From IMG/VR virus record IMGVR_UViG_3300033076_001036, positions 1-54,628 of that record: 54,628 nt of DNA; one strand, given 5' to 3'. This document shows positions 793 through 46,319 of this stretch, piece by piece. The notes under the pieces are model-generated. The model made no database searches. It was not told the DNA's origin and saw only the letters and a list, made by a program, of their open reading frames with translations. How positions within the stretch are numbered: the first letter of the stretch is position 1; the number at the start of each line of letters is the position of its first letter. The position numbers and the translations under genes were made by a program. Source of the stretch: a virus (Duplodnaviria > Caudoviricetes).

Positions 793-2177
793 TAGAACTG
801 ACAGAGTATGAGCGGCTTATCGCCAAGAAGACGAGGATGGTTCCGCCTACAGGTATACCGTCACCACCGGAACTAGGTAACTACCTTTTTGACTTCCAGT
901 CCGCATGTGTGAAGTGGTCTTTGGTGCGCGGAAGATCATGCTTGTTTCTTGACACTGGGCTAGGTAAATCAAGGTGCGCCATTGAATGGGCTCGCGTAGT
1001 TCACGAGCACACGGGAAAACCAGTATTGATTCTTACTCCGTTGGCAGTGGCTAGGCAGTTCGTTTCCGAGGGATCCGCCATAGGTGTTGTCGTTAATAGG
1101 GTCATTGAGACATCTGACATCTCGCACGGGATCAATGTCGTTAACTACGACAGGTTGGATCGTGTGATCGGCACTGAGTGGGGAGGTGTTGTCCTGGATG
1201 AATCTTCTATCCTGAAGGACTTTAACGGCAAGACCAGGAACGCGCTAATCGATGCGTTCAAAAACGTACGGTTTAAGCTGTGCACAACCGCAACGCCAGC
1301 TCCTAACGACCACACGGAACTCGGGAACCATGCGGAGTTTCTCGGAGCGATGACCCGCACTGAGATGCTGTCAATGTTTTTCGTCCACGACGGTGGAAGT
1401 ACTCAAGATTGGCGCATTAAAGGGCATGCTGTTGAGCCGTTTTGGAAGTGGGTGGCGTCGTGGGCTATCGCAATACGCTCACCATCCGACATTGGGTTTG
1501 ATGGGTCAAAGTATATCTTGCCTCCCATTCAGATCGATCAGGTAACGGTTGACTCGGGTGATAACTCAAACGGTGGGATGTTGATTGGGTATGAAGCCAG
1601 GACTCTGTCCGAGCAAAGGGCATCCCGCCGCGCTTCACTTAATAACAGGGTGAAGGCGTGCGCAGACGAAGTGAACGCATCAAGTGAACCATGGCTAATA
1701 TGGTGTGATCTTAACGATGAAAGCTCGGCTCTCACAAGCGCCATTCCTGACGCTGTTGAGGTTCGAGGTAGCGACTCCAGCGAACACAAGGAAAAGGCTG
1801 TCTGGGATTTTATCGAAGGCAAATCGAGAGTTCTAGTAACCAAGCCAAGCATATGCGGGGCTGGGCTCAATATGCAGCGGTGTGCTCACGTTGCATTCGT
1901 AGGACTTGGCTACTCATGGGAGCTTTACTACCAAGCGATCCGAAGGGTCTACAGATTCGGTCAGTCCAGGCCGGTAACGGTGAGAGTGATTGTTGGTTCG
2001 TCTGAAGGCCGAGTGGTTGAGTCGATTAAGAGAAAGCAATCCGATGCCGACGTCATGGCTGTTGGAATTGTTGCGCATATGCGCGAGTCAATGATACACA
2101 ACATAGAGTCTCTCGGTAAAACCGAGGACGGGTACTTTGCAAACGAGGGGATGGTTATTCCAAAATGGTTAACGTGA
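789..2177 (+). CDS. SNF2-type superfamily 2 helicase
   Basis: Walker A DTGLGKS, Walker B VVLDESS, motif III TATP, GAGLNMQ, motif VI QAIRRVYRFGQ. Confidence 0.9.
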   Translation: MIELTEYERLIAKKTRMVPPTGIPSPPELGNYLFDFQSACVKWSLVRGRSCLFLDTGLGKSRCAIEWARVVHEHTGKPVLILTPLAVARQFVSEGSAIGVVVNRVIETSDISHGINVVNYDRLDRVIGTEWGGVVLDESSILKDFNGKTRNALIDAFKNVRFKLCTTATPAPNDHTELGNHAEFLGAMTRTEMLSMFFVHDGGSTQDWRIKGHAVEPFWKWVASWAIAIRSPSDIGFDGSKYILPPIQIDQVTVDSGDNSNGGMLIGYEARTLSEQRASRRASLNNRVKACADEVNASSEPWLIWCDLNDESSALTSAIPDAVEVRGSDSSEHKEKAVWDFIEGKSRVLVTKPSICGAGLNMQRCAHVAFVGLGYSWELYYQAIRRVYRFGQSRPVTVRVIVGSSEGRVVESIKRKQSDADVMAVGIVAHMRESMIHNIESLGKTEDGYFANEGMVIPKWLT

Positions 2178-3112
2178 TTTCTCAGTCTTCCGGAGACGGG
2201 TGGCATCTTTACAACGCTGATTGCGTGGATGTTCTGTCTGGCCTTCCTCCGGAGTCAGTTCACTACACGATCTACTCACCGCCATTTGCGTCGCTCTACA
2301 CATACAGCGCAAGCTCGCGCGACATGGGCAACTGCGCCAACTCGGAGGAGTTCCTAGAGCAGTTTAGCTTTTTGATGCCAGAGTTGCTGAGGGTAACCAA
2401 GCCAGGTCGTCTAATGAGCATGCATTGCATGTTGCTTCCAACATCGAAAGCGCGCGACGGATTCATTGGCCTTTCTGATTTTCGAGGTGACCTCATTCGC
2501 GCCGCTATCAAGGCCGGATGGATCTTTCACTCCGAAGTTTGCATCTGGAAAGACCCGGTTACAGCAATGCAACGCACCAAGGCACTCGGACTACTCCACA
2601 AGCAGATCCGCAAGGACTCAACCATGAGCCGTCAGGGCGTACCTGACTACCTTGTGACTATGCGAAAACCAGGGGAGAACGCGGAGCCAGTTAGTCACAC
2701 CCATGAACAGTTCCCGGTTGAGATGTGGCAAAGGTACGCATCTCCAGTGTGGGCCACATCTGGACAGACTGATGATGAGGGGTTCATCAAATTTGAATCA
2801 CCAAATCAAAACAACCCGGACAAATGTGGGATCGATCCGGGGGATACGCTACAGGGAACGAGCGCTCGATCCGAAGAAGATGAGCGCCACATTTGCCCAT
2901 TGCAGCTGGATGTAATCAGGAGGGGAGTCAGGCTTTGGACAAATCCAGGTGACACGGTGCTCTCACCTTTTGCTGGGATAGGAAGCGAGGGTTATGTATC
3001 CTTGCAAGAAGGTAGGAAGTTCATTGGAGCTGAGCTTAAGCCGTCGTACTATGACCAGGCAAAAGCCAACCTAAGCAACGTCGGAAGACAGTTATCAATG
3101 TTTGGAACCTGA
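2165..3112 (+). CDS. N4-cytosine/N6-adenine DNA methyltransferase, beta class
   Basis: Catalytic motif SPPF near the N-terminus; HICPLQ and SAM-binding SPFAGIGSEG near the C-terminus; coupled to the helicase gene. Confidence 0.9.
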   Translation: MVNVISQSSGDGWHLYNADCVDVLSGLPPESVHYTIYSPPFASLYTYSASSRDMGNCANSEEFLEQFSFLMPELLRVTKPGRLMSMHCMLLPTSKARDGFIGLSDFRGDLIRAAIKAGWIFHSEVCIWKDPVTAMQRTKALGLLHKQIRKDSTMSRQGVPDYLVTMRKPGENAEPVSHTHEQFPVEMWQRYASPVWATSGQTDDEGFIKFESPNQNNPDKCGIDPGDTLQGTSARSEEDERHICPLQLDVIRRGVRLWTNPGDTVLSPFAGIGSEGYVSLQEGRKFIGAELKPSYYDQAKANLSNVGRQLSMFGT

Positions 3113-3115
3113 ACA

Positions 3116-3400
3116 ATGATCGACATCGAACGAATCAGAAAAGCGACTGCTCGCATTCGGGATATGCACTCTCCGGATGATGTGTTTGCTATCGTCCAGG
3201 AGGAGTGTGGTGAACTCATCACCGAGATCGCAAGACTCAGGCGCGGACGTGCTGACTACTACGGGATAGCGCTAGAGGCTCTCGACTGCATCGTAGTTAG
3301 CGTTTCGCTCTTGGATATGCTAACGCACTCACTTGGAGAAGAGTCGCTAACCGGACTTATCAACGCGAAGATGGATCAAATCGAGAGGTATGAAAGATGA
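3116..3400 (+). CDS. MazG-like all-alpha NTP pyrophosphohydrolase
   Basis: EECGELI...EALD acidic motif in a short helical protein. Confidence 0.6.
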   Translation: MIDIERIRKATARIRDMHSPDDVFAIVQEECGELITEIARLRRGRADYYGIALEALDCIVVSVSLLDMLTHSLGEESLTGLINAKMDQIERYER

Positions 3401-3591
3401 GTGAATACGTGCCGCCGGCGAGTCCGTGCATGTGGGCGATTGCTGACCGATTTTTAGATTCCTCCGGATTTGCTATGTTCGCAATAACGGTCGGCCCCTG
3501 CAAAACCGCGTTCGACGCCTGGAAGCTTTCGCGTTTACCTGGTGACTTTGGGTCGTATCAGTATGAGTCTTTGACGGAGACGAATGAATGA
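3397..3591 (+). CDS. hypothetical protein
   Basis: ATGA overlaps with both neighbours. Confidence 0.6.
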   Translation: MSEYVPPASPCMWAIADRFLDSSGFAMFAITVGPCKTAFDAWKLSRLPGDFGSYQYESLTETNE

Positions 3592-4064
3592 AACTACTAA
3601 CAACAGCCATAGCACTAACAGTCCTTTCGCTAATCGCCGCAACTGGACGCGGGTCTGTTGGCACCCGTGGGATTCTGGCCGGCGCTCCGTGCGAAGGTGA
3701 ACGGGCAGACGTGGACGAATTAGCGCGAGAGATTGACCGAATCACTGACAGGCGTATCCGCGCCCTGGTCATTTCCACGGGGCGCTATGAGTCGAGAGGA
3801 TGGCGCCACGATATCTGTTCCGGCGAAGTCCTGGGAGATAAGGGGAAAGCGTTTGGCTGCTTCCAGGCGCATCATCCGGACCGGTCCGGTGGGTATGAAG
3901 GGCAAGTCCAGCGCGCCGCTAGATTACTCCGGTGGACCCTAGCGCGCTGCGGAACGTATGAGGGAGCGATCGCTCACTATGCGACCGGGCACTCGTGCGA
4001 GTGGTCCGGAGCTAGCGAGCGAGCCGAGTATGCGCGCAAAGTGGAGGCTAGGCTCGAATGGTAA
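3588..4064 (+). CDS. exported lysozyme-like/lytic transglycosylase-like protein
   Basis: Hydrophobic N-terminal signal; ES catalytic-type motif (RYESRG), GCFQ and AIAHYATG match SLT-fold motifs. Confidence 0.55.
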   Translation: MKLLTTAIALTVLSLIAATGRGSVGTRGILAGAPCEGERADVDELAREIDRITDRRIRALVISTGRYESRGWRHDICSGEVLGDKGKAFGCFQAHHPDRSGGYEGQVQRAARLLRWTLARCGTYEGAIAHYATGHSCEWSGASERAEYARKVEARLEW

Positions 4065-4070
4065 TAAACA

Positions 4071-4155
4071 GGGCCGCTTGTTCGTCACTCTGTTCGCGGA
4101 GAGAGGGAGGGGAGGAGACGCGAACAGGAAAACAAGCGGCCCCAATGACTTTTTT
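4071..4155. terminator. long two-tier hairpin; probable bidirectional terminator and candidate sRNA
   Basis: 12-bp outer stem 4071-4082/4131-4142; 9-bp inner stem 4090-4098/4119-4127; 20-nt all-purine loop on +; T-rich tracts on both strands. Confidence 0.65.
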
Positions 4156-4175
4156 AGCACACTTCCAATTCGTTA

Positions 4176-4190
4176 TGGTAGTGTGAGCGA
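4176..4190 (+). promoter_or_regulatory. extended -10 promoter, predicted leaderless mRNA for 4191..4724
   Basis: TG-g-TAGTGT, then 6 nt, then ATG; no SD. Confidence 0.5.
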
Positions 4191-4724
4191 ATGAAACAGC
4201 CGCTTCTTTTTGACGTCGGGGAAGCTAGTGAGCTCCCAAGGAAGGAGAAGCCTAAAGAGGTCTTCTTTCCGAGGTCAGGACACTTCCAGCTTCCGGTTGC
4301 CGTGGACGGACTGTACAGCACCGAAGCCAGATTACACGGTAGGAATCCAGACTCAATAACTGGACCGGATCGATCCTGGTGCATTGACGGGAAAGATGCT
4401 AGGCGCTCCGGTGAGTTGCAATGCAAGGCGATCATGTGTGTGCACCACTTGTTCGGGAAAGCTGCCCTAGAACAAGGCGACGAGTCAGCGGTTGAGCGCG
4501 CAATGATCTCCTATCTGAGCGGCGAAATCAACGACTGCTGCGTGCTTGATATTGTCGAGGACGGGATCCCGGTTGACGATGATCAGATCGCCCTACTTCT
4601 TGGCGTTGACCGCGAAAGAGTTCCTCAGATTGGCGCCGAAGCTGCTTTGAGTTTCCGAGAGTCCTCAAAAAAGCCAGGACTATCAAAGCGCAAACTGTCC
4701 AGGGCTAAACCCGAGGATCGGTAA
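4191..4724 (+). CDS. Cys-rich sigma70 region-4-like HTH protein; candidate late transcription factor
   Basis: C..C.HH and CCVLDIVE, then QIALLLGVDRERVPQI (compare sigma 4.2 TRERIRQIE); paralog of 41474..41878. Confidence 0.7.
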   Translation: MKQPLLFDVGEASELPRKEKPKEVFFPRSGHFQLPVAVDGLYSTEARLHGRNPDSITGPDRSWCIDGKDARRSGELQCKAIMCVHHLFGKAALEQGDESAVERAMISYLSGEINDCCVLDIVEDGIPVDDDQIALLLGVDRERVPQIGAEAALSFRESSKKPGLSKRKLSRAKPEDR

Positions 4725-5052
4725 CGGTAATCACTCCGCTTCCACCTTCGTTCAGTTGCGGCACATGCCCGTCAGCAGTCGTCACATTGAGCACGTAGCG
4801 ATAGGTACCAGCGCTGAGTAGCGCGGTCGTAGCCGGCGTCCAGTAAACCCTAATCGTTTTTTCGGCGTCGCTCACTGTCACCGTTGAGCTTGCTTGTGTG
4901 AGCGTGAAAACCGGGGTGGTTGACTTCGCTGGATAGACGCTGAAATCAATTGTTGAAGTGGTGAGGTTCAGCGTCCCAAAGTTCGGATCCGGTACTAAAC
5001 GAAACGTCCACGGTCCGCCACTTCGGCCTAGTTCTACTCTTAGGTTAGCCAT
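4705..5052 (-). CDS. Ig/BppU-like small virion protein
   Basis: Beta-rich; TPATTALLSAGTYRYVL resembles a BppU-N-like pattern; last gene of the leftward arm. Confidence 0.45.
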   Translation of the reverse strand: MANLRVELGRSGGPWTFRLVPDPNFGTLNLTTSTIDFSVYPAKSTTPVFTLTQASSTVTVSDAEKTIRVYWTPATTALLSAGTYRYVLNVTTADGHVPQLNEGGSGVITVTDPRV

Positions 5053-5922
5053 TTAATCTCCGATGACAGTGGCGGTAATCTGCGGACCGCGAACTACTGA
5101 GCAGGTGATTTGTTCTTGCTCAACTTGAGCGGTAATCTGTGGACCGGTTACGACAGAAACCTTTACGCGAGCAGGCCCGCCCGCTGCGGTCAGAACGCCG
5201 GCAGCTGAGCATGTTGCCCCATCAAGAGTGACAGAGCACGCCCCTTCGATTCCTCGCACTACGACGGCGCTAAGCGTTGCGTCGGCTAGTATTACGGACG
5301 AGGCGCTGCGAATCTCAAGCGCGCCCGTAGCGCTCAACGTAGCGCCGGCTAGGACGCTTGACTCAGTAGCAGCTAGCGCAAGTGTCGCCGCGCTGGACAG
5401 TGTTGCGCCAGCTAGTGTGACTGAGCATACGCCAGAAACCGCAATGGTTGACGCGCTTACAAGCGTTGCGCCGGCCAGTGTGTTAGAGCATACGGCGCGA
5501 AGCTCAAGGGTACTAGCGGCCGTGAGTGTGGCGCCGGATAGCGTAACCGCTAAGTCACCGGTTATCGGCGCCGATCCGATTGTACCTTCTGAGCTGAGTG
5601 TAACGTCCGCCAGTGTAATGGCAGCGTTAGCTCGAATCTCAAGCGCGCTTGCGCTGGATAGCGTGACACCCGCCAACGTCGGGGCGCACGCCGCGCGAAT
5701 CTCTAGAGTGCTAGCACTCGAAAGCGTAGCACCGGCCAGCGTTGCAGACGACTGACCGGCTAGAGCTACTGTCCCGGCGCTTGATAACGTCGCTCCCGCC
5801 AGTGTCTTCGCGCAGCTCGCGTTGATTGCGATTACTGCGGACGAGCTTAGGGATGCGCCGGATAGAGTCTGCGATAGACTACCAACGCCCCCAGAAGCTA
5901 TAGACGCTAGCAGGAGTGACAT
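5053..5922 (-). CDS. Ala/Ser/Thr-rich protein with eleven ~21-aa repeats
   Basis: Repeating TL[AS]GATLSS units; three C-terminal QIT repeats. Confidence 0.8.
   Translation of the reverse strand: MSLLLASIASGGVGSLSQTLSGASLSSSAVIAINASCAKTLAGATLSSAGTVALAGQSSATLAGATLSSASTLEIRAACAPTLAGVTLSSASALEIRANAAITLADVTLSSEGTIGSAPITGDLAVTLSGATLTAASTLELRAVCSNTLAGATLVSASTIAVSGVCSVTLAGATLSSAATLALAATESSVLAGATLSATGALEIRSASSVILADATLSAVVVRGIEGACSVTLDGATCSAAGVLTAAGGPARVKVSVVTGPQITAQVEQEQITCSVVRGPQITATVIGD
5188..5889 (-). repeat. 11 degenerate 63-nt (21-aa) coding tandem repeats
   Basis: aa 12-245, e.g. INASCAKTLAGATLSSAGTVA, LAGQSSATLAGATLSSASTLE, VSGVCSVTLAGATLSSAATLA; repeat 5 has 3 extra residues. Confidence 0.85.
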
Positions 5923-5932
5923 TAGATGTTAA

Positions 5933-6253
5933 TCAGCCGAAGAACGCACCAACGTTGCCGATTCTTGGCATATCATACGACGGGAACTCTGGACACACTA
6001 CGTGGTTGATTGTTTCCACAACTGGTCCAACGTTGTAAGTAAGGTGTTCTCCACCGAACAGCTCAGTCCTGACACTGAGCCGAGCAGTAGTGTCAAAATC
6101 TTGATACTCGTTTCCGTCAACGCCATCGACTACGAGAGCAGGGTCCCACACGTGACCATTGCCAAGGATCACGTACTTCCGTGCCTCTACAGGGTCCTCG
6201 AAAATGTGGCCGTCGATTTCAATGTATCCATTTGAGTCAAAAGTCGCTTGCAT
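5933..6253 (-). CDS. hypothetical acidic protein
   Basis: Fits between neighbours with short gaps. Confidence 0.6.
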   Translation of the reverse strand: MQATFDSNGYIEIDGHIFEDPVEARKYVILGNGHVWDPALVVDGVDGNEYQDFDTTARLSVRTELFGGEHLTYNVGPVVETINHVVCPEFPSYDMPRIGNVGAFFG

Positions 6254-9712: not shown

Positions 9713-9740
9713 ACCTTAACGCGGCTTGGCTTTCTTTATG
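9713..9740 (-). promoter_or_regulatory. putative late promoter CATAAA-N16-TAAGGT (leaderless)
   Basis: Same spacing as four other copies; ATG at 9706 lies 6 nt after the -10. Confidence 0.6.
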
Positions 9741-12904: not shown

Positions 12905-12937
12905 AAAAGGGTTTCCCCTGTTCCCAAGGAAAACCCT
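12905..12937 (-). terminator. intrinsic terminator-like hairpin upstream of the endolysin
   Basis: AGGGTTTTCCTT-GGGAAC-AGGGGAAACCCT-TTT on the minus strand. Confidence 0.55.
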
Positions 12938-12960
12938 ATTCGATTCTCGCGGCTTTTATG
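12933..12960 (-). promoter_or_regulatory. putative late promoter CATAAA-N16-TAGGGT
   Basis: Intergenic copy of the motif upstream of the endolysin. Confidence 0.6.
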
Positions 12961-26162: not shown

Positions 26163-27082
26163 TAGGACTGAGGGATCTTGACGGTCGCTCCGACTGGTAC
26201 CATCGGTGCCTTAGTTAATTCCGGGTTAGCGGCGATAAGAGACTCAACTGAAACGCCGTAAGTGGCCGCAATCGAAGTGAGTGAGCGAGACAGTGCGTTC
26301 ACAATTACGCGCGCGCGAGCTTGTTCAGCGTCGTTTCTCTGTGCTCTGATTGCATCGTCGCGCTGACGACGTGCTGATTGCTGGAGTCCGAACAGGTCAA
26401 GCGCGTCCGCTGTTCCACGGGTGACCGCATTCGATAGCGCATCTGTCACAATATCTTCCACACGCTTTGCTTGGTAGGATGATTGCTTGAGTTCGTTCAC
26501 CGTTGAAACGCCGAAGTTCTGATACTGGATCAGAGTGTCGCCAAGGTTGCTTTTCAGTTTCTTGAGTTCGGCTCGTTCCGGTTTGGTGGGGTCGGGTCGC
26601 GCGAAAGCTTTAACTGATTGCGAAGTAGCGGCACCCGAGTTTCGAGCACTCTGAACAGTTGGGAAGTCGAAAGCATCGTCTTCACCTTCCTCGGGCGCAT
26701 CGGTGAACTCGACTCGGATATCAACGCCGTCGGTGCGGCCCATATCGGTGTCATCGTTGTATGACGAGCACACGGCCCGACGCTGCCCGTAGACAGGATC
26801 CACTAGCACACCGGGAGATTTGTCACGGCACGCACGAAAGAACTTCTGAAGGCCTACCCCGAAAAGCGAGTCGCCGTAGTTGCCCTTAAAGATCCCGGAA
26901 CGCATCGGAATCGTGTAGGTGAAAACCAAGTTGTGGGCACCGGTCTGCTCCACAAGATCCTGATTCCGGCGTTGTAGCTTGTGTTGCACTGACTCATGAG
27001 CAAACGAAACCGAACGAGCCGAGATTGGCAGCTGCTGTCCACGCCATGAGAACTTAGGTAGTTTGGAAAATTCGGAAGGCAT
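26162..27082 (-). CDS. Mu gpN-like (DNA circularization N-domain) tail protein with C-terminal LysM
   Basis: SWRG...VEQTG...PGVLVDPVYG; SLTSIAATYGVSVESLIAANP LysM. Confidence 0.78.
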   Translation of the reverse strand: MPSEFSKLPKFSWRGQQLPISARSVSFAHESVQHKLQRRNQDLVEQTGAHNLVFTYTIPMRSGIFKGNYGDSLFGVGLQKFFRACRDKSPGVLVDPVYGQRRAVCSSYNDDTDMGRTDGVDIRVEFTDAPEEGEDDAFDFPTVQSARNSGAATSQSVKAFARPDPTKPERAELKKLKSNLGDTLIQYQNFGVSTVNELKQSSYQAKRVEDIVTDALSNAVTRGTADALDLFGLQQSARRQRDDAIRAQRNDAEQARARVIVNALSRSLTSIAATYGVSVESLIAANPELTKAPMVPVGATVKIPQS

Positions 27083-29202
27083 TACTTCACCGTCGGAACG
27101 CTAGGGGAGTTGCCTCGGTTTTGAGCGGCCATTGCAATGACTCCCTTGAGGGCTTCGGTTTGGTCTGCAATGAAGCTCTTTAGTTGATTCTCTTCAATCA
27201 GCTTCCGTTTGACGTCGCCCTTGATAGCTTCCTCATTCTCCCCGCCGCCCAAGCGAGCTAGCCCCTGGAACAGGTTTTTGAACATTCCAGGATCTTCCTG
27301 GGAGCTTGCCAGTTGAGCCTTGGCCGCCTCAATCGAAGCCGAGATTGCTTTTTCTGCCCCGGCGTAGTCGCCTTTGGACAGTGCGGCGGCGGCCTGTGAT
27401 GACGCATTTTGAGCACCGATCCCAAGCTCAGCTTCGCGACGATTTTTCGCATCATCTGCGCTAGCCATTGAATCGACAGTCATTAGCCCGACCGACAGAG
27501 TGGTCACGGCCAACGCTCCGATTATCCCGGCTTTGCCTAAGGCAGCCGTTCCCCCGGTGGCTTCTCCGGTGATGACTCCTTTGATGGCATCGCCAATCTT
27601 AGCAGCTGCGATGTCAGCGGTGATCTTGGTTGCTACGGCTGCTCCAATTGTCCCAAGCACCCCAAGTTTATCGATTAGCCATGTGACCTTATCGACCAGC
27701 TTTCCAAGCTCCGGTGTAAGCTCCGCAAACTTCGGGATGAGCTTAGTCACTTGTGGAAGCAACTTTGAACCCATCTCAGAGTTAAAGTTCTTCATTGCCT
27801 CTTTGAACTGAATGTCAGCGTCCTGATATCGGCTTTCAGCACGCGCGTTCAGGTCCGCGTCTGACATGCTAGCGCCTGAAAAGCGCCCAAACTCAGCGAG
27901 CATCGCCGCCTTGCCAGCCTCGCCCTTTTTCTTGCGGTCCTTCGGCGCAAGCTTCGCATTCGCTTCCTCCGCCTGAAGATATAGCGGGGAGAAACCCTGA
28001 AACGCCTTGATCGACTGAGCGTTGAAAACGTCCTGGAGCTTGGTCAGGTCGCCGCCTGTTTTGGCCATTATGTCGGCCATGATCTCGCGCGGATCCTTGA
28101 GCTTGGTCTTTCCCTTGTCTGAAAAAATATTCAGACCAAGGGCATTGAGCGCCTTCTGAGACGGCTTCTTAGTGAGGTCCTCACCAAAGCGAACCACGGC
28201 GGTACTTGCTTCGGCAGCGTTGGCCGCACCACCGCGCGCGACGGACGCTTGCGCCATGGCGCCCATGGTCTTCATGAGTTCCGCCGGACCCCCTTGGAAC
28301 TTGCGCGTGGCCGCTCCCAGTGACGCTAGCTCAACGGCCATGTCCTTAATCTCAACCGCTCCCATGTTTCCTTGAGCAGCGAGAGTTCGCATCACATCGT
28401 TCAGGGCCTTGATCTGTTCTTCGGGATCTTTGATCGTGTCTCGGATCACATTGAACGCTTGACCGGCGGCTTCTCCCATTTCTCCGAAGTCAGTCCCCGT
28501 AGCGATTGCAAGCTTGCCCATGTCCTGGATAGCCTTGCGAGCCGCCGAAACATCACCAGTCTTTTCAACGAAACCGCCCATTGCGGCCATCGTCTCTTCA
28601 CCCGTGAACCCTCTGACTTGCTGAGACTCTTTGAGGATGGCAGCTTTCTGCCTCGGGTCTCCAGTCATGTTGGCCAGCTTGGAGGCCATTGCTGTTTCCC
28701 TCATCTGTTGAGAGACAGCCCCCGAAAGCATGAAACCGCCGCCGATGGCAAGCGCGCCCGTTGCCACGGTCCCGACGGTTCTGGCCGCGTTAGTTGCGCT
28801 CCTACCGATGGTCCCTAGGGTGTTAGACCTAGAGCGCATCTGAGCGACTTCTATGCGCTTACGCTGACGCTCCTCTTGCTGGTAATGCTTGTTCTGAAGC
28901 TGTTGTTTCCAGCGAGCGGACCGCGCCACCTCCGCGGCGACTCGCTTCTCTTCTCTAATCTTGGCATTCGCAATCTGACGTGCGGCCCTGTCTTCCGCCG
29001 CAACTTGCGCACGCAGCGCCGGATCAACGCCACGAGTCCTAACCGGCGCACCGCGTCCAGATCCGCCACTCGTTCGGCCACTACCGCCAAAAGTCCTATC
29101 CATGCGCGACGCATGCTGAGCAGCTCGCTTTTCAATCGAAGCAAAAGCGCGATTGATCGCGTCCTGTCCGACGACTTTAAAATCATACTCAAGAGTGGCC
29201 AC
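27082..29202 (-). CDS. tape measure protein
   Basis: Long Ala/Gly/Lys-rich helical protein; QGNMGAVEIKDMA motif; follows tube and chaperone. Confidence 0.85.
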   Translation of the reverse strand: MATLEYDFKVVGQDAINRAFASIEKRAAQHASRMDRTFGGSGRTSGGSGRGAPVRTRGVDPALRAQVAAEDRAARQIANAKIREEKRVAAEVARSARWKQQLQNKHYQQEERQRKRIEVAQMRSRSNTLGTIGRSATNAARTVGTVATGALAIGGGFMLSGAVSQQMRETAMASKLANMTGDPRQKAAILKESQQVRGFTGEETMAAMGGFVEKTGDVSAARKAIQDMGKLAIATGTDFGEMGEAAGQAFNVIRDTIKDPEEQIKALNDVMRTLAAQGNMGAVEIKDMAVELASLGAATRKFQGGPAELMKTMGAMAQASVARGGAANAAEASTAVVRFGEDLTKKPSQKALNALGLNIFSDKGKTKLKDPREIMADIMAKTGGDLTKLQDVFNAQSIKAFQGFSPLYLQAEEANAKLAPKDRKKKGEAGKAAMLAEFGRFSGASMSDADLNARAESRYQDADIQFKEAMKNFNSEMGSKLLPQVTKLIPKFAELTPELGKLVDKVTWLIDKLGVLGTIGAAVATKITADIAAAKIGDAIKGVITGEATGGTAALGKAGIIGALAVTTLSVGLMTVDSMASADDAKNRREAELGIGAQNASSQAAAALSKGDYAGAEKAISASIEAAKAQLASSQEDPGMFKNLFQGLARLGGGENEEAIKGDVKRKLIEENQLKSFIADQTEALKGVIAMAAQNRGNSPSVPTVK

Positions 29203-29211
29203 GCTCTCACC

Positions 29212-29239
29212 ATCCTATCACGAATTACAATTCGTTATT
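29212..29239 (-). promoter_or_regulatory. putative late promoter AATAAC-N16-TAGGAT
   Basis: GTG start at 29202 lies 9 nt after the -10. Confidence 0.55.
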
Positions 29240-40864: not shown

Positions 40865-40892
40865 ATTCTAGCGCGGATGTTAGTTGGTTATG
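40865..40892 (-). promoter_or_regulatory. putative late promoter CATAAC-N16-TAGAAT (leaderless portal mRNA)
   Basis: GTG start lies 6 nt after the -10; no SD. Confidence 0.65.
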
Positions 40893-41133: not shown

Positions 41134-41477
41134 TTCCACCCCTTTCCGTCATACCTTAGCTCCCATTCTTTCAGCGGGATCAATTCGACACCCTTCCCAT
41201 TTTTTCCCCATGAACACCACCCTCCCGCTTTCTCTGAAAGTTCCCTCAGCTTGTCGATTTCCCATTGCTCTAGTCTTTCTGGATGTAAGTCATTATGCAG
41301 GCCAGCTTCCGGATCTACCAGCTGTTCCCATAGTCGGAACTCAAGATCGATCATCCACCCGGCGAAGTAGTAACGCTCCGAAAGCTCGCTCATGAACCAC
41401 TTGAGCTTTTTTTCAGCATCGAACCAATCGAGCGAAAGAAGTCTAAACTCCAGCGGTGTCAGTTTCCTTTTTTTCAC
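41130..41477 (-). CDS. conserved hypothetical phage protein
   Basis: MSELSERYYFAGW..DLEFRLW...LSEKAGGW pattern. Confidence 0.65.
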   Translation of the reverse strand: MKKRKLTPLEFRLLSLDWFDAEKKLKWFMSELSERYYFAGWMIDLEFRLWEQLVDPEAGLHNDLHPERLEQWEIDKLRELSEKAGGWCSWGKNGKGVELIPLKEWELRYDGKGWK

Positions 41478-41878
41478 TTGTACTCCCTCAACCCTCTAGC
41501 CGTTTCCGAAGCTCCGCGCAACTTTATTTCCACTCCGCGCATCACCTGATCAACGCGAGTGCTTGAACACCCAAGAGCCTTAGCGGTCCCTCTGATATCA
41601 AGCCCACCCTCCCTTTCTGCCACGTCAAGCGAGCAACTGTTTTCCGGAGGTACGTCCCACGGGTCAAGAGATCCGTTCGGCTTGATTGTACCAGCCGCTA
41701 GGACCTCTAGGTAGTTGTTGTGCCGACAACCTACGAACGGACACGGACGCGGAACGTTCGCACAGTCCGCACGAGTCCGCGGCCTCTCATGGTCCGCTAA
41801 CGGTTCTTCACCGTCCAGTTCCAGGTGCGCAAGGTTGCGGTCAATCTGCAGTCGTACTCTTTGGCGCGAACTGGTCAC
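41474..41878 (-). CDS. Cys-rich sigma70 region-4-like HTH protein
   Basis: RPRTRADC...RPCPFVGCRHN.Y...SCSLDVAE..G...LGCSSTRVDQ; start revised to GTG 41878. Confidence 0.75.
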   Translation of the reverse strand: MTSSRQRVRLQIDRNLAHLELDGEEPLADHERPRTRADCANVPRPCPFVGCRHNNYLEVLAAGTIKPNGSLDPWDVPPENSCSLDVAEREGGLDIRGTAKALGCSSTRVDQVMRGVEIKLRGASETARGLREYK

Positions 41879-41882
41879 ACTC

Positions 41883-43151
41883 TCAACTCCCAAAAACAAC
41901 AGTCCGTTCAGAACCAACCATTCCGAACCGTCCCGTTATCGCATACCTCGCAGCGTCAAGCCAGTGGTTATTTTTATCCTCAGGTGTTTCTAGGTAAGCG
42001 TCCGGAATGTGGGGATCTTTCTTGCGCTTGTAGCTATTGAACTCCCGGATCCCGTTGACGCACTCGGGGCTCACGTAGAACCGGCACCAGGGCAGGTCGT
42101 TCGGCGGTTCGCGCTTGGCCAGCAGATCCATAACCCGAGAAATGCCGGGGAGAATCGCATTATCGGCCGGTTGACTATTGACACCGGCCCTTCGTCGTAG
42201 TTCCGCGATTCGGTCCGGCCGTGAGCGGTCGCACCAAAATGTGTGAGCAAAGCTCCACTCTTTTGCGCGTCGGTCCCATTCCTCCGGAAGCACTCCGCTT
42301 TCGTAGTGTTCCTTCAGCGCCCAAATCACGGCGTCATTTCCGTGGCCCTGAATACCGAAAAGAATCATCACGCCGGCATCGTTCCAACCATGATCGACAC
42401 CAACAATGAACTCACGAAACTGAGTTAGCGGTGGTGGCGTCCTAACGTGGAACGACTCGTCGAACGGATAAACCAGTCCCTCGCCGCTGTCGAAATCGCA
42501 ATCATACTCTCGCGAGTAGACTTGCGGATTCGTGAGCTGTTTGACAGTGCGTAGCCAAGCCTGGTCAACTTGCGGCGATTCGCTAGAGCGAAAGCGAAAT
42601 GAAACGAACTCAATTCCCTCGCCCTTCTCTCGTTTCTGCCCGAGCTGATAGTCGCGATACAAAACCCCGTGACGTCCCCGGCGCGGCGTCCCTGACTTGA
42701 CCCAAATCGCGCTTGAACCCGAACGCGAAAACGTCGGCTGAACGACACTCGTCTCAACTGTGGCTTCGATATCATCGCACTCGTCCTCTAGAACCATTCC
42801 GAAGCGCTGGCCTCGAATTGAGTGCGCATTCTCCGCTCCCCACGTCGAGAGCCGCGATCCATTCGAGTAGACCGCTGTGAGGTCGCTCATGTTCGTGGTG
42901 ACGAATCGCGACAGTGGACCCTTATAATCCTCTAACAGGTGCGGCCAAAAGACCATCTTTGCCTGTTTGAGCGAGGGGAGCAAAAGTCCGATCTGAAGGC
43001 CCGGCACCTTCATTGCCCACGAATGCAAAAGCACGCGTAGAAGAAACGACTTCCCCGTGCCTCGTCCCATAGCAAGCGTTACGACTCGCCCCGGTTGTAC
43101 CGCTTGAAATGCCTCCGACTGAAGCGCGTCAAGGTTCGCAGTGAAGCTCAC
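41883..43151 (-). CDS. terL: terminase large subunit
   Basis: Walker A GRGTGKS, Walker B VLEDE, SGTP, RNase H-like GVDHGWND and HWLDAARY. Confidence 0.92.
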   Translation of the reverse strand: MSFTANLDALQSEAFQAVQPGRVVTLAMGRGTGKSFLLRVLLHSWAMKVPGLQIGLLLPSLKQAKMVFWPHLLEDYKGPLSRFVTTNMSDLTAVYSNGSRLSTWGAENAHSIRGQRFGMVLEDECDDIEATVETSVVQPTFSRSGSSAIWVKSGTPRRGRHGVLYRDYQLGQKREKGEGIEFVSFRFRSSESPQVDQAWLRTVKQLTNPQVYSREYDCDFDSGEGLVYPFDESFHVRTPPPLTQFREFIVGVDHGWNDAGVMILFGIQGHGNDAVIWALKEHYESGVLPEEWDRRAKEWSFAHTFWCDRSRPDRIAELRRRAGVNSQPADNAILPGISRVMDLLAKREPPNDLPWCRFYVSPECVNGIREFNSYKRKKDPHIPDAYLETPEDKNNHWLDAARYAITGRFGMVGSERTVVFGS

Positions 43152-43738: not shown

Positions 43739-43746
43739 GTAGCAGC

Positions 43747-43774
43747 ACTCTAGCTCGATTGTGGGCTAGTTATG
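43747..43774 (-). promoter_or_regulatory. putative late promoter CATAAC-N16-TAGAGT
   Basis: Just downstream of a terminator; GTG at 43738 lies 8 nt after the -10; no SD. Confidence 0.65.
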
Positions 43775-43782
43775 ACCAGACG

Positions 43783-43807
43783 AAAAACCCCGCTTACTAG
43801 GCGGGGT
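43783..43807 (-). terminator. intrinsic terminator separating early-left genes from late genes
   Basis: ACCCCGC-CTAGTAA-GCGGGGT-TTTT. Confidence 0.75.
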
Positions 43808-43831
43808 GTGAAAACTTCCGGCAGTTGAGAG

Positions 43832-44074: not shown

Positions 44075-44160
44075 TCGTTCGTTCCCTTCGTTCCGCCAGC
44101 TCCCTGCTGACTCAGTAGTTATCGTCTATCCTGAGACCGTACGCAACTAAAATCGACACG

Positions 44161-44224: not shown

Positions 44225-44476
44225 TTACCACTCTACGTCGATGGCTGGGTTCAGTAGCGACGGGAGGTCATAGACATCGACAGAAAACCCACGCCTCCTA
44301 AGAGATCTCAGCGCTCGCACCATCTCTTCTGGGTAATTTCGCGCGAACCAGATCCTAGCAGTCCTACTGCCAGTCGCTGCGATGGCATATATTTCCGCGT
44401 CCACAAAATCCAGCGACCTTGTAGACTCGGAAAGCTTCCTAGCTTGCTCAAGGCTTAATTTTTTAGGCATATTCAA
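44225..44476 (-). CDS. hypothetical protein
   Basis: Coupled to the clamp gene stop. Confidence 0.6.
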   Translation of the reverse strand: MNMPKKLSLEQARKLSESTRSLDFVDAEIYAIAATGSRTARIWFARNYPEEMVRALRSLRRRGFSVDVYDLPSLLNPAIDVEW

Positions 44477-45609
44477 ACTCGCATCGGCATGATGATAGCG
44501 AACCCGCCCTCATGTTCAATCATCATTGGATCTAGCTGTCCACCTAGTCTAATGGTCGCAGAACTCTCGAAAATACTTGAAAGAGTATCTGCCAAGTATT
44601 TGTAATTGCAACCAATTTTGCCGGACCCTATAATTACAGCAGCCACGGAGTCGCTCGCCTTTTGTGTGCCACTTTGTGCCACTAGTGCCAATTCTGTGCC
44701 ACTTACTGACATTTCAACGCCATTGGAACGGTCATCGGCCGCAAGTCCGATAGCTTTCGCCGACTGTAGTAGCTCCTCGCGACTCACAATCGCCGAACAA
44801 GTCAGCGTTTCTTTTGACGGCACAACCTGATGGTACGGTGGAAACGCAGCGTCCACGGTTTTGACCCCGAACACATACGCCCCGAAGTTGGCCAGAATCA
44901 CCCCGCCAAAGCGCGCGAGCATCACGTTCTCCAGTCCGTCGCTAGGTGCGTCACCGGCGAGTCTACGAAGCTCCTGTGCGCCCCTACGGGGGATCAAAGC
45001 CTTAAGCTCGCTAGCCTCACCATCGTTAACTTCCTCGCGTTTGCTCTCAGCTAGTGCCAATCGATGGCCGTCCGTTGCGACCGCTCGCACGGTCTCCGGT
45101 CCAATCTCGACCAGTAGCGACGCAATGTGCATTCGCGAATCATCGAGACTCACGGCATAACTCGACTGTGCCAACACTCGCGAAAGTTGAGACACCGGGA
45201 GCGTGACCCACTCCGCATCGTCCCCGCTCATTTCGAGTTCAGGGTACTCCGTTGGAAGCTGCCCATCTAGCGAATACCGGAGCTTTCGAGCACTCTCCGA
45301 ATACAGCTCCGCACGGCCGTCACTATCAGACGTGAGCACTACGAGACCCGACGGCATAGCCTTAAGCCGTTCCGCTAGCGCTCGCGCATCAATCGCGACC
45401 CCTCCCGACTCTTCAACGTCACACACAATTGGCGAAACAATCGATAGTACCAGGTCAGTAGCCGCAAACGTAACAGCAGCCCCCTCTCCTGATTTCGGCG
45501 CCGTGATAAGCACGCTCGAAAGGATCGGGAGCTGCGACTTAGTGGCCGCCACATTCGCCGCCCTAAGGACGGCCTTGAGCATCGTTTCTTTCTGAGTTCT
45601 GATCTTCAT
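44473..45609 (-). CDS. dnaN: DNA polymerase III beta sliding clamp, phage-encoded
   Basis: LPILSSVLI, ATDL, EYP, VATDGHRLA, FPPYHQVVP, NYKYL.D.L, IIMPMRV; start revised to MKIRT. Confidence 0.92.
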   Translation of the reverse strand: MKIRTQKETMLKAVLRAANVAATKSQLPILSSVLITAPKSGEGAAVTFAATDLVLSIVSPIVCDVEESGGVAIDARALAERLKAMPSGLVVLTSDSDGRAELYSESARKLRYSLDGQLPTEYPELEMSGDDAEWVTLPVSQLSRVLAQSSYAVSLDDSRMHIASLLVEIGPETVRAVATDGHRLALAESKREEVNDGEASELKALIPRRGAQELRRLAGDAPSDGLENVMLARFGGVILANFGAYVFGVKTVDAAFPPYHQVVPSKETLTCSAIVSREELLQSAKAIGLAADDRSNGVEMSVSGTELALVAQSGTQKASDSVAAVIIGSGKIGCNYKYLADTLSSIFESSATIRLGGQLDPMMIEHEGGFAIIMPMRV

Positions 45610-45614
45610 TCTCT

Positions 45615-46319
45615 CTACTCCTTTTGGCACTCCTCGTGCCTAATACCCTTGGCCCCAAATTTCCAGGCCACTCGATCCCCTACCATACACTCCACACCGC
45701 ACACAATGCATTTTTGCGCGCCGTGTTTCGCGATGTGACTCTCTGCTAGTGCGTATACCCTCTCCGCTGCCTTTTTCTTGCCCCCATCGCTACTACTCCC
45801 GCCGGTATCATTCGCACCGATACCACTAGCCCCCGGCCGGCACTCATAGTGCCAAAGTTCCGTCCGTCCCTTGATCCACGAAACGCGCGTCATCAATTCC
45901 GGAATCTTCCCACATCCAGCACACTTCCGCTCCCCGTATTTTTCGACGTGTTTTTTCGTAAGAGTACAGTGACCAAACTTCGATAAATCCAGCACAGGAG
46001 CGCCGTCAAAAAGTCCAGCGTCACTATCCAATAACGGATCGCATTTGATTCCGAGCACATCGGAAAGCTCTAACGCTAGCTCATTAGCGATCATTCTGAC
46101 AACAGCTGGTCTCGCTACTGTTGTTTCGATTCTCGCGCGCTCCAGCTCGGAAACCTTTCGCTTGGCCATGACCTCCGAAGTCATTCGATTGATCGTGGCT
46201 ATCACCCTGGGTTTCAGCTCCTTGATCTTTTCTACGAGCTTAGCCCTGTCCCCAAGTTCCTCGGACTTCTGGGCCCTGAGTTTCTTCCACTTAATCGCCT
46301 CCCACACTCTCTTGTCCAC
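45615..46319 (-). CDS. protein with two CxxC...HxxC zinc-finger-like repeats
   Basis: KYGERKCAGCG..RVSW..HYEC and KHGAQKCIVCG..RVAW..HEEC. Confidence 0.7.
   Translation of the reverse strand: MDKRVWEAIKWKKLRAQKSEELGDRAKLVEKIKELKPRVIATINRMTSEVMAKRKVSELERARIETTVARPAVVRMIANELALELSDVLGIKCDPLLDSDAGLFDGAPVLDLSKFGHCTLTKKHVEKYGERKCAGCGKIPELMTRVSWIKGRTELWHYECRPGASGIGANDTGGSSSDGGKKKAAERVYALAESHIAKHGAQKCIVCGVECMVGDRVAWKFGAKGIRHEECQKE

What the first reader, a model, noticed from the sequence alone, without database searches (positions are those of the whole stretch)
4166..4724. Stand-alone Cys-rich sigma4-like protein as the candidate reader of the late box, with that box in its own promoter
Seen: the last gene of the + arm encodes Cys/His pairs plus a sigma-4.2-like helix (VDRERVPQI) and lacks sigma regions 2-3. 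Its extended -10 is overlapped on the opposite strand by CATAAC (4177-4172). The 11-mer CAATTCGTTAT (4166-4176) recurs exactly in the tape-measure promoter (29228-29238). Known: sigma4 HTHs bind -35 elements and the RNAP beta-flap, and lambdoid late regulators sit at the end of the delayed-early arm. Inference: this is a sigma4-substitution late activator with autoregulation.
Basis: partly seen in the sequence, partly recalled or inferred. Interest (0 to 1): 0.8.

Follow-up and report, generated by a model that had tools for sequence, protein, structure and literature searches.

The report
Clamp-docking sigma-4-like phage regulator
A small phage protein combines four conserved cysteines, a DNA-reading helix like the -35-reading part of bacterial sigma factors, and short peptides that look like docking sites for the DNA sliding clamp, so it may switch on the phage's late genes only once its DNA is being copied.

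Summary
ORF 4191-4724 is a real 177-aa gene with 20 metagenomic homologues of 92-210 aa. It has four conserved Cys and a C-terminal helix-turn-helix that matches only sigma region 4. It has no sigma regions 2-3. The 11-mer and the opposite-strand CATAAC are where stated.

The bare hexamer CATAAC/CATAAM is not enriched. The bipartite form ATAAM-N16-TARRRT is: 5 minus-strand copies against 0.12 expected, and none at other spacings. The ORF's upstream region shares box plus flank with the tape-measure copy.

New here: the family's N-termini, and two members' C-termini, carry beta-clamp-binding-type motifs (Qxx[LM]F; QPLLF and QLPVAV in this protein). The phage encodes its own DnaN-type clamp. A complex model places residues 31-36 in the clamp's conserved pocket (score 0.67, best control 0.00).

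Best reading (0.45): a clamp-tethered activator of late promoters, analogous to Mu C and T4 gp33/gp55-gp45. It does not match the Mor Pfam model, and gp33/gp55 were not compared directly.

RNAP or beta-flap contact, box binding and autoregulation are untested. The autoregulatory layout is absent in the one close relative.

The scan noted similar items on other DNA: e1-6003471 (four-Cys sigma-4-like protein) and e1-5068526 (sigma-like protein plus clamp plus docking tails).

The parts
4191..4724 (+). ORF (P0001, 177 aa): Cys4 plus sigma-4-like HTH protein with N-terminal clamp-binding-type motifs
4197..4211 (+). Residues 3-7, QPLLF: pentapeptide of clamp-binding type (Qxx[LM]F) at the N-terminus
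   Evidence: The same type is seen in P0003 (QLALF) and P0016 (QDSLF).
4287..4304 (+). Residues 33-38, QLPVAV: the family-wide conserved N-terminal motif, placed in the clamp pocket by the complex model
   Evidence: (alignment), (contacts of residues 31-36 with clamp residues 179-184 and 372-378)
4380..4541 (+). Cys cluster C64, C78, C83, C117 (C-x13-C-x4-C-x33-C); the metal site is inferred
   Evidence: Metal binding was not tested.
4578..4670 (+). Helix-turn-helix, residues 130-160, including VDRERVPQIGAEAAL, sigma-4.2-like
   Evidence: (helices 130-137 and 141-160)
4176..4184 (+). Candidate extended -10 (TGgTAGTGT), 6 nt before the ATG, implying a leaderless mRNA. No ATAAM or TTGACA at the proper spacing upstream.
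   Evidence: The consensus scan found no sigma-70-type promoter in 3000-6000. This is inference.
4166..4176 (+). 11-mer CAATTCGTTAT, identical to 29228-29238
4172..4178 (-). CCATAAC box on the opposite strand, with no TANNNT 16 nt downstream on that strand (orphan box)
4071..4155 (+). Long two-tier hairpin (4071-4142) followed by a T6 run (4150-4155). Candidate terminator that separates the ORF from the upstream + genes.
   Evidence: -48.9 kcal/mol, z -3.68, 0 of 200 shuffles fold as well. Not called by the terminator scan.
29212..29238 (-). Late-type promoter before the tape-measure gene: ATAAC-N16-TAGGAT. The spacer holds the palindrome ACGAATT-AC-AATTCGT (29220-29235).
40865..40891 (-). Late-type promoter before the portal gene: ATAAC-N16-TAGAAT, 6 nt before GTG
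43747..43773 (-). Late-type promoter before the gene upstream of terL: ATAAC-N16-TAGAGT
12933..12959 (-). Late-type promoter: ATAAA-N16-TAGGGT
9713..9739 (-). Late-type promoter: ATAAA-N16-TAAGGT, 6 nt before ATG
44473..45630 (-). Phage-encoded DnaN-type beta sliding clamp. The record's own call is P0036, 378 aa.
   Evidence: all three Pfam clamp domains above cut-off. Also.
41474..41917 (-). Distant paralogue (P0035) with the same Cys scaffold and a sigma-4-like HTH, directly after terL
   Evidence: hhalign probability 96.8%, E 2.9e-10. E 7.6e-7.

Best explanation
ORF 4191-4724 encodes a small DNA-binding regulator. A four-cysteine (probably metal-binding) subdomain packs against a sigma-region-4-type helix-turn-helix. 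A disordered N-terminal arm carries two beta-clamp-binding-type motifs.

Proposed mechanism: the gene is transcribed from its own extended -10 promoter as a leaderless mRNA. The protein binds the (C)CATAAM box, which sits exactly where a -35 hexamer would be, 16 nt upstream of a TARRRT -10, at five mostly leaderless late promoters. It helps host RNA polymerase start there. It is tethered to a sliding clamp loaded on replicating phage DNA, either the phage's own DnaN homologue or the host's. Late transcription would thereby be coupled to replication, as in phage Mu (C protein) and T4 (gp33/gp55-gp45).

Shown by computation: the gene is real and conserved; the HTH is sigma-4-like; the Cys are conserved; the motifs are of clamp-binding type and dock in the clamp's conserved pocket in a model; the bipartite promoter motif is non-random.

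Inferred: metal binding, binding to the box, activation, any contact with RNAP or replacement of sigma region 4, and autoregulation through the box in its own promoter.
For: Gene and fold:
- 20 homologues, all 92-210 aa.
- Invariant C78, C83, C117 and D120; C64 in 18 of 18 rows that cover it.
- Sigma70_r4 hit in 7 of 21 members, best E 1.9e-7.
- Profile against PDB: 35 of 35 hits are sigma factors, best E 0.016.
- Atlas: 28 of 30 nearest clusters are viral Sigma70_r4 clusters.

Promoter motif:
- ATAAM-N16-TARRRT gives 5 hits, all on the minus strand, against 0.12 expected; 0 of 100 shuffles reach 5.
- There are zero hits at N14, N15, N17 or N18 on either strand.
- Four of the five sites have a start codon 6-9 nt after the -10.
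- The ORF's upstream region shares box plus 6 flanking nt with the tape-measure promoter. Only 0.22% of 40-nt windows share such an 11-mer with a late promoter.

Clamp link:
- Strict Qxx[LM]F occurs before the Cys cluster in 9 of 18 full-length members.
- It occurs at the extreme C-terminus in 2 others (P0013 QLGLF, P0008 QATLF).
- Three further members have hexapeptide-type motifs at the aligned position.
- Background: 2 of 421 ORFs of 60 aa or more in this phage and G001 have the motif within the first 12 or last 8 residues.
- The phage encodes a complete DnaN-type clamp.
- Complex model of clamp plus residues 1-60: score 0.67, best of 3 controls 0.00. The mark was reached by 58 of 80 solved complexes and 2 of 110 mismatched pairs. 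Runs agree in at least 65% of contacts; partner pLDDT at least 36. Residues 31-36 contact clamp residues 179-184, 250-262 and 372-378.

Precedent:
- Mu C has N- and C-terminal clamp-binding motifs (QHDLF, QPDLF) that are needed for late transcription.
- The Mor/C family consensus is Qx[D/E][L/M]F.
- Mu and T4 late promoters have a -10 but no evident -35 (PMC12867686: abstract, passages and Discussion read).

Relatives:
- G001 has the gene and box-like elements at N16 before three leaderless-type starts: CATAAC, CCATTGA and CCATAGC.
Against: - No direct evidence links this protein to the box or to RNAP.
- P0001 itself misses the Pfam Sigma70_r4 model.
- Structure matches are weak: VIA Z<=3.8, no Foldseek match at E<=0.001.
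- One of the three complex runs scored 0.01. Clamp-peptide complexes are solved in number, so the pass may reflect likeness only.
- The box at the ORF is on the opposite strand and orphan.
- The hexamer alone is at or below chance.
- In G001 only one exact ATAAM-N16-TANNNT exists, and the homologue has no promoter of its own.
- G001 has a nearly identical recognition helix (RxRVPQI), yet its boxes vary.
- No DnaN domain was found in G001, G002, G005, G007 or G009. All but G002 are fragments.
- Clamp-binding-type motifs also end the DNA methylases of this phage and of G002. Clamp docking therefore need not imply transcription.
Confidence: 0.45

Rival explanations
1. A clamp-associated DNA-binding factor of replication or post-replicative DNA handling, not a late activator. 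Examples: origin or site binding, control of clamp use, or titration of the host clamp. The sigma-4-like HTH would serve only as a generic DNA-binding module.
For: - The gene lies in the arm that holds a nuclease-like ORF, an SNF2 helicase, a DNA methylase and a MazG-like gene.
- The methylase of the same arm also ends in a clamp-binding-type motif, QLSMF, and so does a methylase-like ORF in G002.
- Clamp docking is modelled.
- Superfamily members in G007 and G002 sit beside a helicase-like gene or a methylase/integrase-like gene.
Against: - It does not explain the box plus flank shared with a late promoter.
- It does not explain the need for a reader of the -35-position box.
- The HTH is closest to the -35-reading helix of sigma factors.
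- The documented small HTH proteins with terminal clamp motifs, the Mor/C family, are transcription activators (PMC12867686).
Confidence: 0.25
2. An ordinary phage transcription regulator (repressor or Cro/CII-like). It would bind dyad operators such as ACGAATT-AC-AATTCGT as a dimer. The clamp-like motifs would be coincidental or serve another partner.
For: - The tape-measure promoter holds a 7+2+7 palindrome, and the ORF upstream region holds one half-site.
- Many small phage HTH proteins carry sigma-4-like or LuxR-like HTHs. LuxR-type response regulators appear among the fold matches.
Against: - Only one full palindrome exists.
- The 7-mer AATTCGT occurs 6 times on both strands; I estimate about 6.7 would be expected by chance.
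- The N-terminal motif is the most conserved feature outside the core. It reappears at the C-termini of unrelated tails in P0013 and P0008 and docks in the clamp's conserved pocket in the model.
- G001 has no AATTCGT at all.
Confidence: 0.2
3. The paralogue P0035 (41474-41917), or a host factor, reads the late box. ORF 4191 has another role, and the 11-mer match is chance.
For: - P0035 has the same scaffold and a different recognition helix.
- Exact 11-13-mers shared with late promoters occur at three other loci by chance.
- An earlier scan note (e1-6003471) places a four-Cys sigma-4-like gene within the late module of another phage. I did not test this.
Against: - P0035 lies inside the late operon, downstream of the terS-side late promoter, so it cannot start late transcription by itself.
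- It was not found in the sequenced part of G001, which has box-like elements.
- The match at 4166 is the only one of the four that includes the box and lies upstream of a gene.
Confidence: 0.1

Closest known systems
Phage Mu C (and Mor) late/middle activators, Mor/C family (PMC12867686)
   Same: - Small protein with an N-terminal clamp-binding motif at residues 2-7 and a C-terminal HTH.
- Target promoters have a -10 but no canonical -35.
- The phage is a myovirus.
- The idea is the same: the beta clamp couples late transcription to replication.
   Different: - No sequence relation: PF08765 gives no match in the window or G001 at E<=10, and Mor is not among the families hit by the 21 members.
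- This family has a conserved Cys4 cluster and a sigma-4-type HTH.
- The phage carries its own DnaN homologue, whereas Mu uses the host clamp.
- Function here is inferred only.
Phage T4 late transcription: gp55, gp33 and the gp45 clamp (PMC2988020 and PMC7892883 seen as search listing and abstracts only; described in the Discussion of PMC12867686)
   Same: - A phage-encoded clamp plus small RNAP-directed factors with clamp-docking peptides.
   Different: - The T4 clamp is a gp45 trimer, not DnaN-type.
- From recall, gp33 is not an HTH protein and does not read DNA.
- T4 late promoters have no upstream box.
- I made no dedicated comparison with gp33 or gp55; the PHROG scan of P0001 gave no hit.
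AsgB of Myxococcus xanthus, and viral clusters automatically named 'AsgB family'
   Same: - A stand-alone protein of about 160 aa whose C-terminal HTH resembles sigma-70 region 4 (PMC3986340, passages read).
- The Atlas puts a viral 'AsgB family' cluster among the nearest to the paralogue P0035.
   Different: - No AsgB sequence was available from a tool, so no direct comparison was made.
- AsgB is a cellular developmental regulator.
- Whether AsgB has a Cys cluster or a clamp motif was not checked here.
Sigma-70 family region 4 (Pfam PF04545)
   Same: - The recognition-helix sequence resembles the sigma one (query profile GisrkrvaqivaEAalrlr aligned to TRERIRQIEAKALRKLR).
- The predicted helices fit a sigma-4-type HTH.
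   Different: - No regions 1-3, so it is not a sigma factor.
- P0001 scores below the Pfam model's reporting limit.
- It has an extra Cys subdomain and an N-terminal arm.

Membership tests
Sigma-70 factor family | Region 2 (core binding and -10 recognition) is present | tested here: not met
   No Sigma70_r2 or r3 hit in any of the 21 family members at E<=1. All homologues are 92-210 aa.
Sigma-70 region 4 domain (PF04545) | Match to the Pfam model at or above its cut-off (24.1 bits) | tested here: not met
   P0001 has no hit at E<=1 and none at E<=10 in the own-genome search. The G001 homologue scores 12.1 bits, below cut-off. Seven of 21 relatives hit, best E 1.9e-7. The relation is therefore remote and holds at family level only.
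Sigma-70 region 4 domain (PF04545) | Sigma-4 fold (helical bundle with a C-terminal HTH) | tested here: inconclusive
   AF2 model with the alignment: pLDDT 73.1. Best VIA Z is 3.8, and by their titles at least 17 of the first 26 rows are sigma-factor chains. Foldseek gives no match at E<=0.001.
Sigma-70 region 4 domain (PF04545) | Binds the RNAP beta-flap tip and a -35 element | not testable with these tools
Mor/C family (PF08765) | Match to the Mor Pfam model | tested here: not met
   0 of 2 records match at E<=10. Mor is not among the families hit by the 21 members.
Mor/C family (PF08765) | N-terminal clamp-binding motif Qx[D/E][L/M]F (consensus from PMC12867686) | tested here: inconclusive
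   P0001 has QPLLF at residues 3-7. Relatives have QNSLF, QENLF, QDSLF, QQSMF and QLALF. The Q, L/M and F positions fit, but the acidic third position fits only in QDSLF (P0016); QENLF has the acid at the second position.
Beta-clamp-binding proteins (motif class, not a homologous family) | QL[SD]LF-type or QLxLxL-type peptide in a disordered terminus | tested here: met
   Residues 1-60 have pLDDT 56-68 in the model.
Beta-clamp-binding proteins (motif class, not a homologous family) | The peptide docks in the pocket between clamp domains II and III and the C-terminus | tested here: met
   This is a model only. Score 0.67, best control 0.00; the mark was reached by 58 of 80 solved complexes and 2 of 110 mismatched pairs. 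Runs agree in at least 65% of contacts; partner pLDDT at least 36. Contacts are at clamp residues 179-184, 250-262 and 372-378. That these form the canonical pocket is from recall.
Beta-clamp-binding proteins (motif class, not a homologous family) | Physical binding to a clamp | not testable with these tools
   Needs two-hybrid, pull-down or ITC.
AsgB family | Sequence homology to M. xanthus AsgB | not tested
   The only evidence is an automatic Atlas cluster name near the paralogue. No AsgB sequence was obtained from a tool.
WhiB-like Fe-S proteins | Whib domain and its Cys spacing | tested here: not met
   No Whib Pfam hit among the 21 members at E<=1. The spacing here is C-x13-C-x4-C-x33-C.

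The most novel reading that the evidence does not exclude
A third, independently evolved form of clamp-coupled late transcription. A stand-alone sigma-region-4-like module takes the place of the host sigma's own region 4 at a private -35-position box (CCATAAM). A metal-binding Cys4 subdomain holds the module together. Two docking peptides tether it to a phage-encoded DnaN-type sliding clamp. As a result, five leaderless late promoters fire only on replicating phage DNA.
Probability: 0.25. Interest if true: 0.85.

Novelty: new variant of a known kind. Interest (0 to 1): 0.62.

Why it matters
Coupling of late transcription to replication through a sliding clamp was known only for T4 until a 2026 paper added Mu. 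That paper predicted the strategy is more widespread (PMC12867686).

This family would be a structurally different solution: a sigma-4-type reader, not Mor/C and not gp33/gp55. It occurs in a phage that carries its own bacterial-type clamp. It also comes with a defined, testable promoter architecture, a box at the -35 position 16 nt from the -10.

The family offers a simple system for asking how a detached sigma region 4 can work with or against the host sigma. It would also give an annotation for a set of uncharacterised viral 'Sigma70_r4' proteins.

In addition, phage DNA methylases with terminal clamp motifs point to the clamp as a general hub for phage early proteins.

Tried and rejected
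Searches that led nowhere
- Pfam, PHROG and NCBIfam scans of P0001 gave nothing useful.
- The word-index homologue search found only the protein itself. With the alignment it gave few extra members.
- tblastn of P0001, P0018 and P0007 against cultured phages found no match.
- PDB sequence search with the single protein gave one irrelevant weak hit.
- The single-sequence AF2 model was useless, pLDDT 35.
- Foldseek against BFVD was not informative.
- The search for related loci found no relatives with P0001 in viral contigs, with A2 in viral contigs, with A2 in metagenome contigs, or with P0028 in genome contigs.
- Sequencing runs: no RNA holder is listed.

Relatives found through the portal protein
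- These 16 loci mostly have terL directly abutting the portal gene, so they gave no orthologous promoter to footprint.
- In 5 of them fetched whole (GC 62-68%) the bipartite motif is absent.

Ideas rejected
- CATAAC or CATAAM as an enriched hexamer: rejected.
- A lambda-Q-like reading by gene position: rejected, since the late genes are on the other strand.
- A terminase small-subunit role: rejected, since the gene upstream of terL is elsewhere (43148-43738).
- A minus-strand promoter at the ORF's box: rejected, since there is no TANNNT at N16.

Literature
- My searches found no paper on a Cys-rich sigma-4-like phage protein with clamp motifs.
- Supplements of PMC12867686 (the Mor/C motif alignment, Fig. 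S3F) were not seen.
Full report
**Setting.** The window is a whole IMG/VR virus record of 54,628 bp, linear and estimated 73% complete.
- A minus-strand arm from about 47.5 kb down to 4.7 kb holds, in order: a DnaN-type clamp, a terL-adjacent gene, terL, portal, major head protein, sheath, tape measure, baseplate and fibre genes, and lysis genes.
- A plus-strand arm (48.0-54.6 kb, continuing at 1-4.7 kb) holds small unknown genes, a nuclease-like ORF, an SNF2 helicase, an N6/N4 DNA methylase and a MazG-like gene.
- ORF 4191-4724 is the last plus-strand gene. It overlaps the convergent gene 4705-5052 by 20 nt.

**The observation.** Every 'seen' item is in the sequence.
- The ORF is 177 aa.
- GTTATG, which is CATAAC on the minus strand, lies at 4172-4177.
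- CAATTCGTTAT occurs exactly twice, at 4166 and 29228.
- The second copy lies in the 32-nt gap before the tape-measure gene (27082-29202; PHROG tape measure). It overlaps the stop codon of the upstream gene.
- There it is half of a palindrome, ACGAATT-AC-AATTCGT (29220-29235).

**Is it more than chance?**
- The hexamer is not enriched. CATAAC has 12 copies against 15.4 expected, CATAAM 19 against 31.1, and CCATAAM 6 against 7.2.
- Recurrence of the 11-mer alone is weak: 16 of 100 shuffles give 2 or more matches at up to 1 mismatch.
ATAAM-N16-TARRRT has 5 hits, all on the minus strand, against 0.12 expected; 0 of 100 shuffles reach 5.
- There are no hits at N14, N15, N17 or N18 on either strand.
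- With the -10 relaxed to TANNNT, the counts are 10 at N16 (9 of them on the minus strand), 2 at N14, 1 at N15, 1 at N17 and 0 at N18.
- The pattern was tuned post hoc, but the spacing and strand specificity are hard to get by chance.
- The five sites precede the terL-adjacent gene, the portal gene, the tape-measure gene and two further modules. In four of them a start codon follows the -10 by 6-9 nt, which implies leaderless mRNAs.
- Given these five promoters, only 0.22% of 40-nt windows share an exact 11-mer with one of them. Three other such loci exist. All three are in coding DNA and match spacer rather than box.
- The match at the ORF is therefore moderately significant. It is the only one that includes the box.

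**The ORF's own control region.**
- A two-tier hairpin at 4071-4142 folds at -48.9 kcal/mol (z -3.68; 0 of 200 shuffles fold as well). A T6 run at 4150-4155 follows it.
- Next comes TGgTAGTGT (4176-4184), 6 nt before the ATG. This is the same '-10 plus 6 nt plus start' design as the late promoters.
- There is no ATAAM 16 nt upstream on the plus strand.
- The consensus scan reported no sigma-70-type promoter or terminator in 3000-6000.
- The box here is on the opposite strand and has no TANNNT partner at N16. It is an orphan box overlapping the candidate extended -10.

**The protein.**
- P0001 has no Pfam, PHROG or useful NCBIfam hit by itself. The word-index search found only itself.
- The exhaustive HMMER search found 20 homologues at E<=1e-3, best 1.2e-19, all 92-210 aa. 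The gene is real and the protein stands alone.
- The alignment shows invariant C78, C83, C117 and D120, with C64 in all 18 rows that reach it. The consensus is TRxxC...G...C....CRYHL...C-LD-.AD, followed by an HTH.
- The His residues are not conserved.
- Seven of 21 members hit Pfam Sigma70_r4, best E 1.9e-7. None hits sigma region 2 or 3, Mor or Whib.
- A family profile against all PDB sequences returns 35 sequences at E<=10. All are sigma factors, matched in their C-terminal region. The best E is 0.016, aligned to ...VTRERIRQIEAKALRKLR.
- The AF2 model built with the alignment has pLDDT 73.1, and 75-89 over residues 60-160. It shows helices at 98-109, 118-123, 130-137 and 141-160.
- Fold searches are weak but point the same way. 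Foldseek gives no match at E<=0.001, with PhyR sigma-like and SigA region 4 chains on top. The best VIA Z is 3.8, and at least 17 of the first 26 rows are sigma chains.
- The Atlas puts 28 of 30 nearest clusters in viral Sigma70_r4 sets.
- Conclusion: the protein has a sigma-4-type HTH by remote homology. It is not a sigma factor.

**A second copy.**
- hhalign to the family profile gives probability 96.8%, E 2.9e-10. The genome search gives E 7.6e-7.
- Similar proteins with even more sigma-like helices (GVTRERARQIE) occur in the portal-related phages G007 and G002. There they sit next to a helicase-like gene or a methylase/integrase-like gene.
- The Atlas labels a nearby viral cluster 'AsgB family'. 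AsgB is a 163-aa Myxococcus protein with a sigma-70 region-4-like C-terminus (PMC3986340, passages read). I could not compare sequences directly.

**New lead: clamp docking.** The N-terminal arms of the family are variable except for short motifs of the beta-clamp-binding type.
- P0001 has QPLLF (residues 3-7) and QLPVAV (33-38). P0003 has QLALF and QVPLTM.
- Many members start M-x-Y-Q-x-x-[LM]-F.
- P0013 ends in QLGLF, and P0008 carries QATLF in its C-terminal tail.
- Strict Qxx[LM]F lies before the Cys cluster in 9 of 18 full-length members and at the C-terminus in 2 more. Three further members have a hexapeptide form.
- As background, only 2 of 421 ORFs of 60 aa or more in this phage and G001 have the strict motif within the first 12 or last 8 residues. 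These are this ORF and the DNA methylase 2165-3112, which ends RQLSMFGT.
- The phage encodes a full DnaN-type clamp at 44473-45630, with three Pfam domains above cut-off.
- I modelled the clamp (alignment of 42 rows) with residues 1-60 of the ORF (family alignment). The score is 0.67 and the best of 3 controls is 0.00. The mark was reached by 58 of 80 solved complexes and 2 of 110 mismatched pairs. Runs agree in at least 65% of contacts, and partner pLDDT is at least 36. One of the three runs scored 0.01.
- Residues 31-36 touch clamp residues 179-184 (the invariant TDGHRL), 250-262 and the C-terminal 372-378. From recall, this is the canonical peptide pocket.
- Because many clamp-peptide complexes are solved, the pass shows likeness to a clamp-binding peptide. 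It does not show binding.

**Precedent.** Ho and Harshey (PNAS 2026, PMC12867686; abstract, passages and Discussion read) report the following.
- The Mu late activator C has N- and C-terminal clamp-binding motifs (QHDLF, QPDLF). It binds the E. coli clamp and needs it for late transcription.
- 100 Mor/C relatives carry Qx[D/E][L/M]F at the N-terminus.
- Mu and T4 late promoters have a -10 but no evident -35.

The present family has the same layout: a terminal docking peptide, a C-terminal HTH, and promoters without a canonical -35. It is not Mor/C, since PF08765 gives no match at E<=10.

**Relatives.**
- The closest homologue cluster includes P0026, on a 40.4-kb IMG/VR contig (G001).
- G001 is syntenic with the window across the structural arm, with most proteins at about 40-86% identity.
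- Its homologue is 49% identical over 102 residues. It also lies near the end of the arm that converges on the fibre genes, but it overlaps the upstream ORF (ATGA) and is followed by one more ORF.
- G001 has neither the 11-mer nor the 7-mer AATTCGT. The proposed autoregulatory layout is therefore not conserved.
- G001 has one exact CATAAC-N16-TAACAT, before a fibre gene. It also has box-like CCATTGA and CCATAGC at N16 before the portal gene and a lysis-module gene. Its terL promoter-like site has no box.
- Five more distant portal relatives (GC 62-68%) have no such motif. Of 11 records searched, 2 have a family member, both of the paralogue type without an N-terminal docking motif.
- No DnaN domain was found in G001, G002, G005, G007 or G009. 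Only G002 is near complete.
However, the sample is two phages.

**Verdict.** The gene is a real, conserved, stand-alone Cys4 plus sigma-4-like DNA-binding protein. The late-promoter architecture is real.
- The link between the two is circumstantial. It rests on the shared box plus flank, the -35 position of the box, the lack of another recognisable reader among the ORFs scanned, and the clamp-docking motif that parallels known late activators.
- I rate a clamp-coupled late activator at 0.45.
- The specific 'sigma-4 substitution' mechanism, as stated in the novel case, is at about 0.25.
- Autoregulation is unsupported.
- Rival readings are a replication or clamp-associated DNA-binding factor (0.25), an ordinary dyad-binding regulator (0.2), and the paralogue or a host factor as the true reader (0.1).

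**Limits.**
- The host is unknown.
- No RNA data are listed.
- Supplements of PMC12867686 were not seen.

Noticed in passing
window 2165-3112 (+); L025 77-1441 (-): The N6/N4 DNA methylase ends in ...RQLSMFGT, a terminal clamp-binding-type motif. It is one of only 2 of 421 ORFs with such a terminal motif. A methylase-like ORF next to the sigma-4-like gene of the relative G002 ends ...QPSLFGRSA. Phage methylases may dock on the sliding clamp.
   Followed up: partly
window 9713-9739, 12933-12959, 29212-29238, 40865-40891, 43747-43773 (all -): The bipartite late-promoter motif ATAAM-N16-TARRRT occurs only at N16 and only on the minus strand. Four of the five sites have a start codon 6-9 nt after the -10, implying leaderless mRNAs.
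   Followed up: yes
window 41474-41917 (-): A distant paralogue of the ORF lies directly after terL. It has a TRADC...PCPFVGCRHN...SCSLDVAE scaffold and the helix SSTRVDQV. The Atlas places a viral 'AsgB family' cluster nearby. Similar proteins in G002 and G007 lack the N-terminal docking motif.
   Followed up: partly
window 4071-4155 (+): A long two-tier hairpin (-48.9 kcal/mol, z -3.68) lies 7 nt before a T6 run, between gene 3588-4064 and the ORF. It is probably a terminator.
   Followed up: partly
window 29220-29235: A perfect 7+2+7 palindrome, ACGAATT-AC-AATTCGT, fills the spacer of the tape-measure late promoter. One half-site recurs at 4167-4173. The 7-mer is absent from the relative G001.
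   Followed up: partly
window 46125-46137: The 13-mer TTCGATTCTCGCG equals part of the spacer of the late promoter at 12933-12959. It lies inside coding DNA and is probably chance.
   Followed up: no
window 43739-44472: A gap of about 730 nt with no ORF of 90 aa or more lies between the clamp gene and the terL-adjacent gene. It holds the first late promoter at its downstream end. Its content was not examined.
   Followed up: no
window 44473-45630 (-): The phage clamp is only 26-36% identical to the 41 homologues aligned with it. Most of the few homologues that carry an organism name are Alphaproteobacteria such as Xanthobacteraceae, Parvularcula and Ancylobacter. This is a weak hint at the host. 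No DNA polymerase was recognised among the ORFs I scanned.
   Followed up: no
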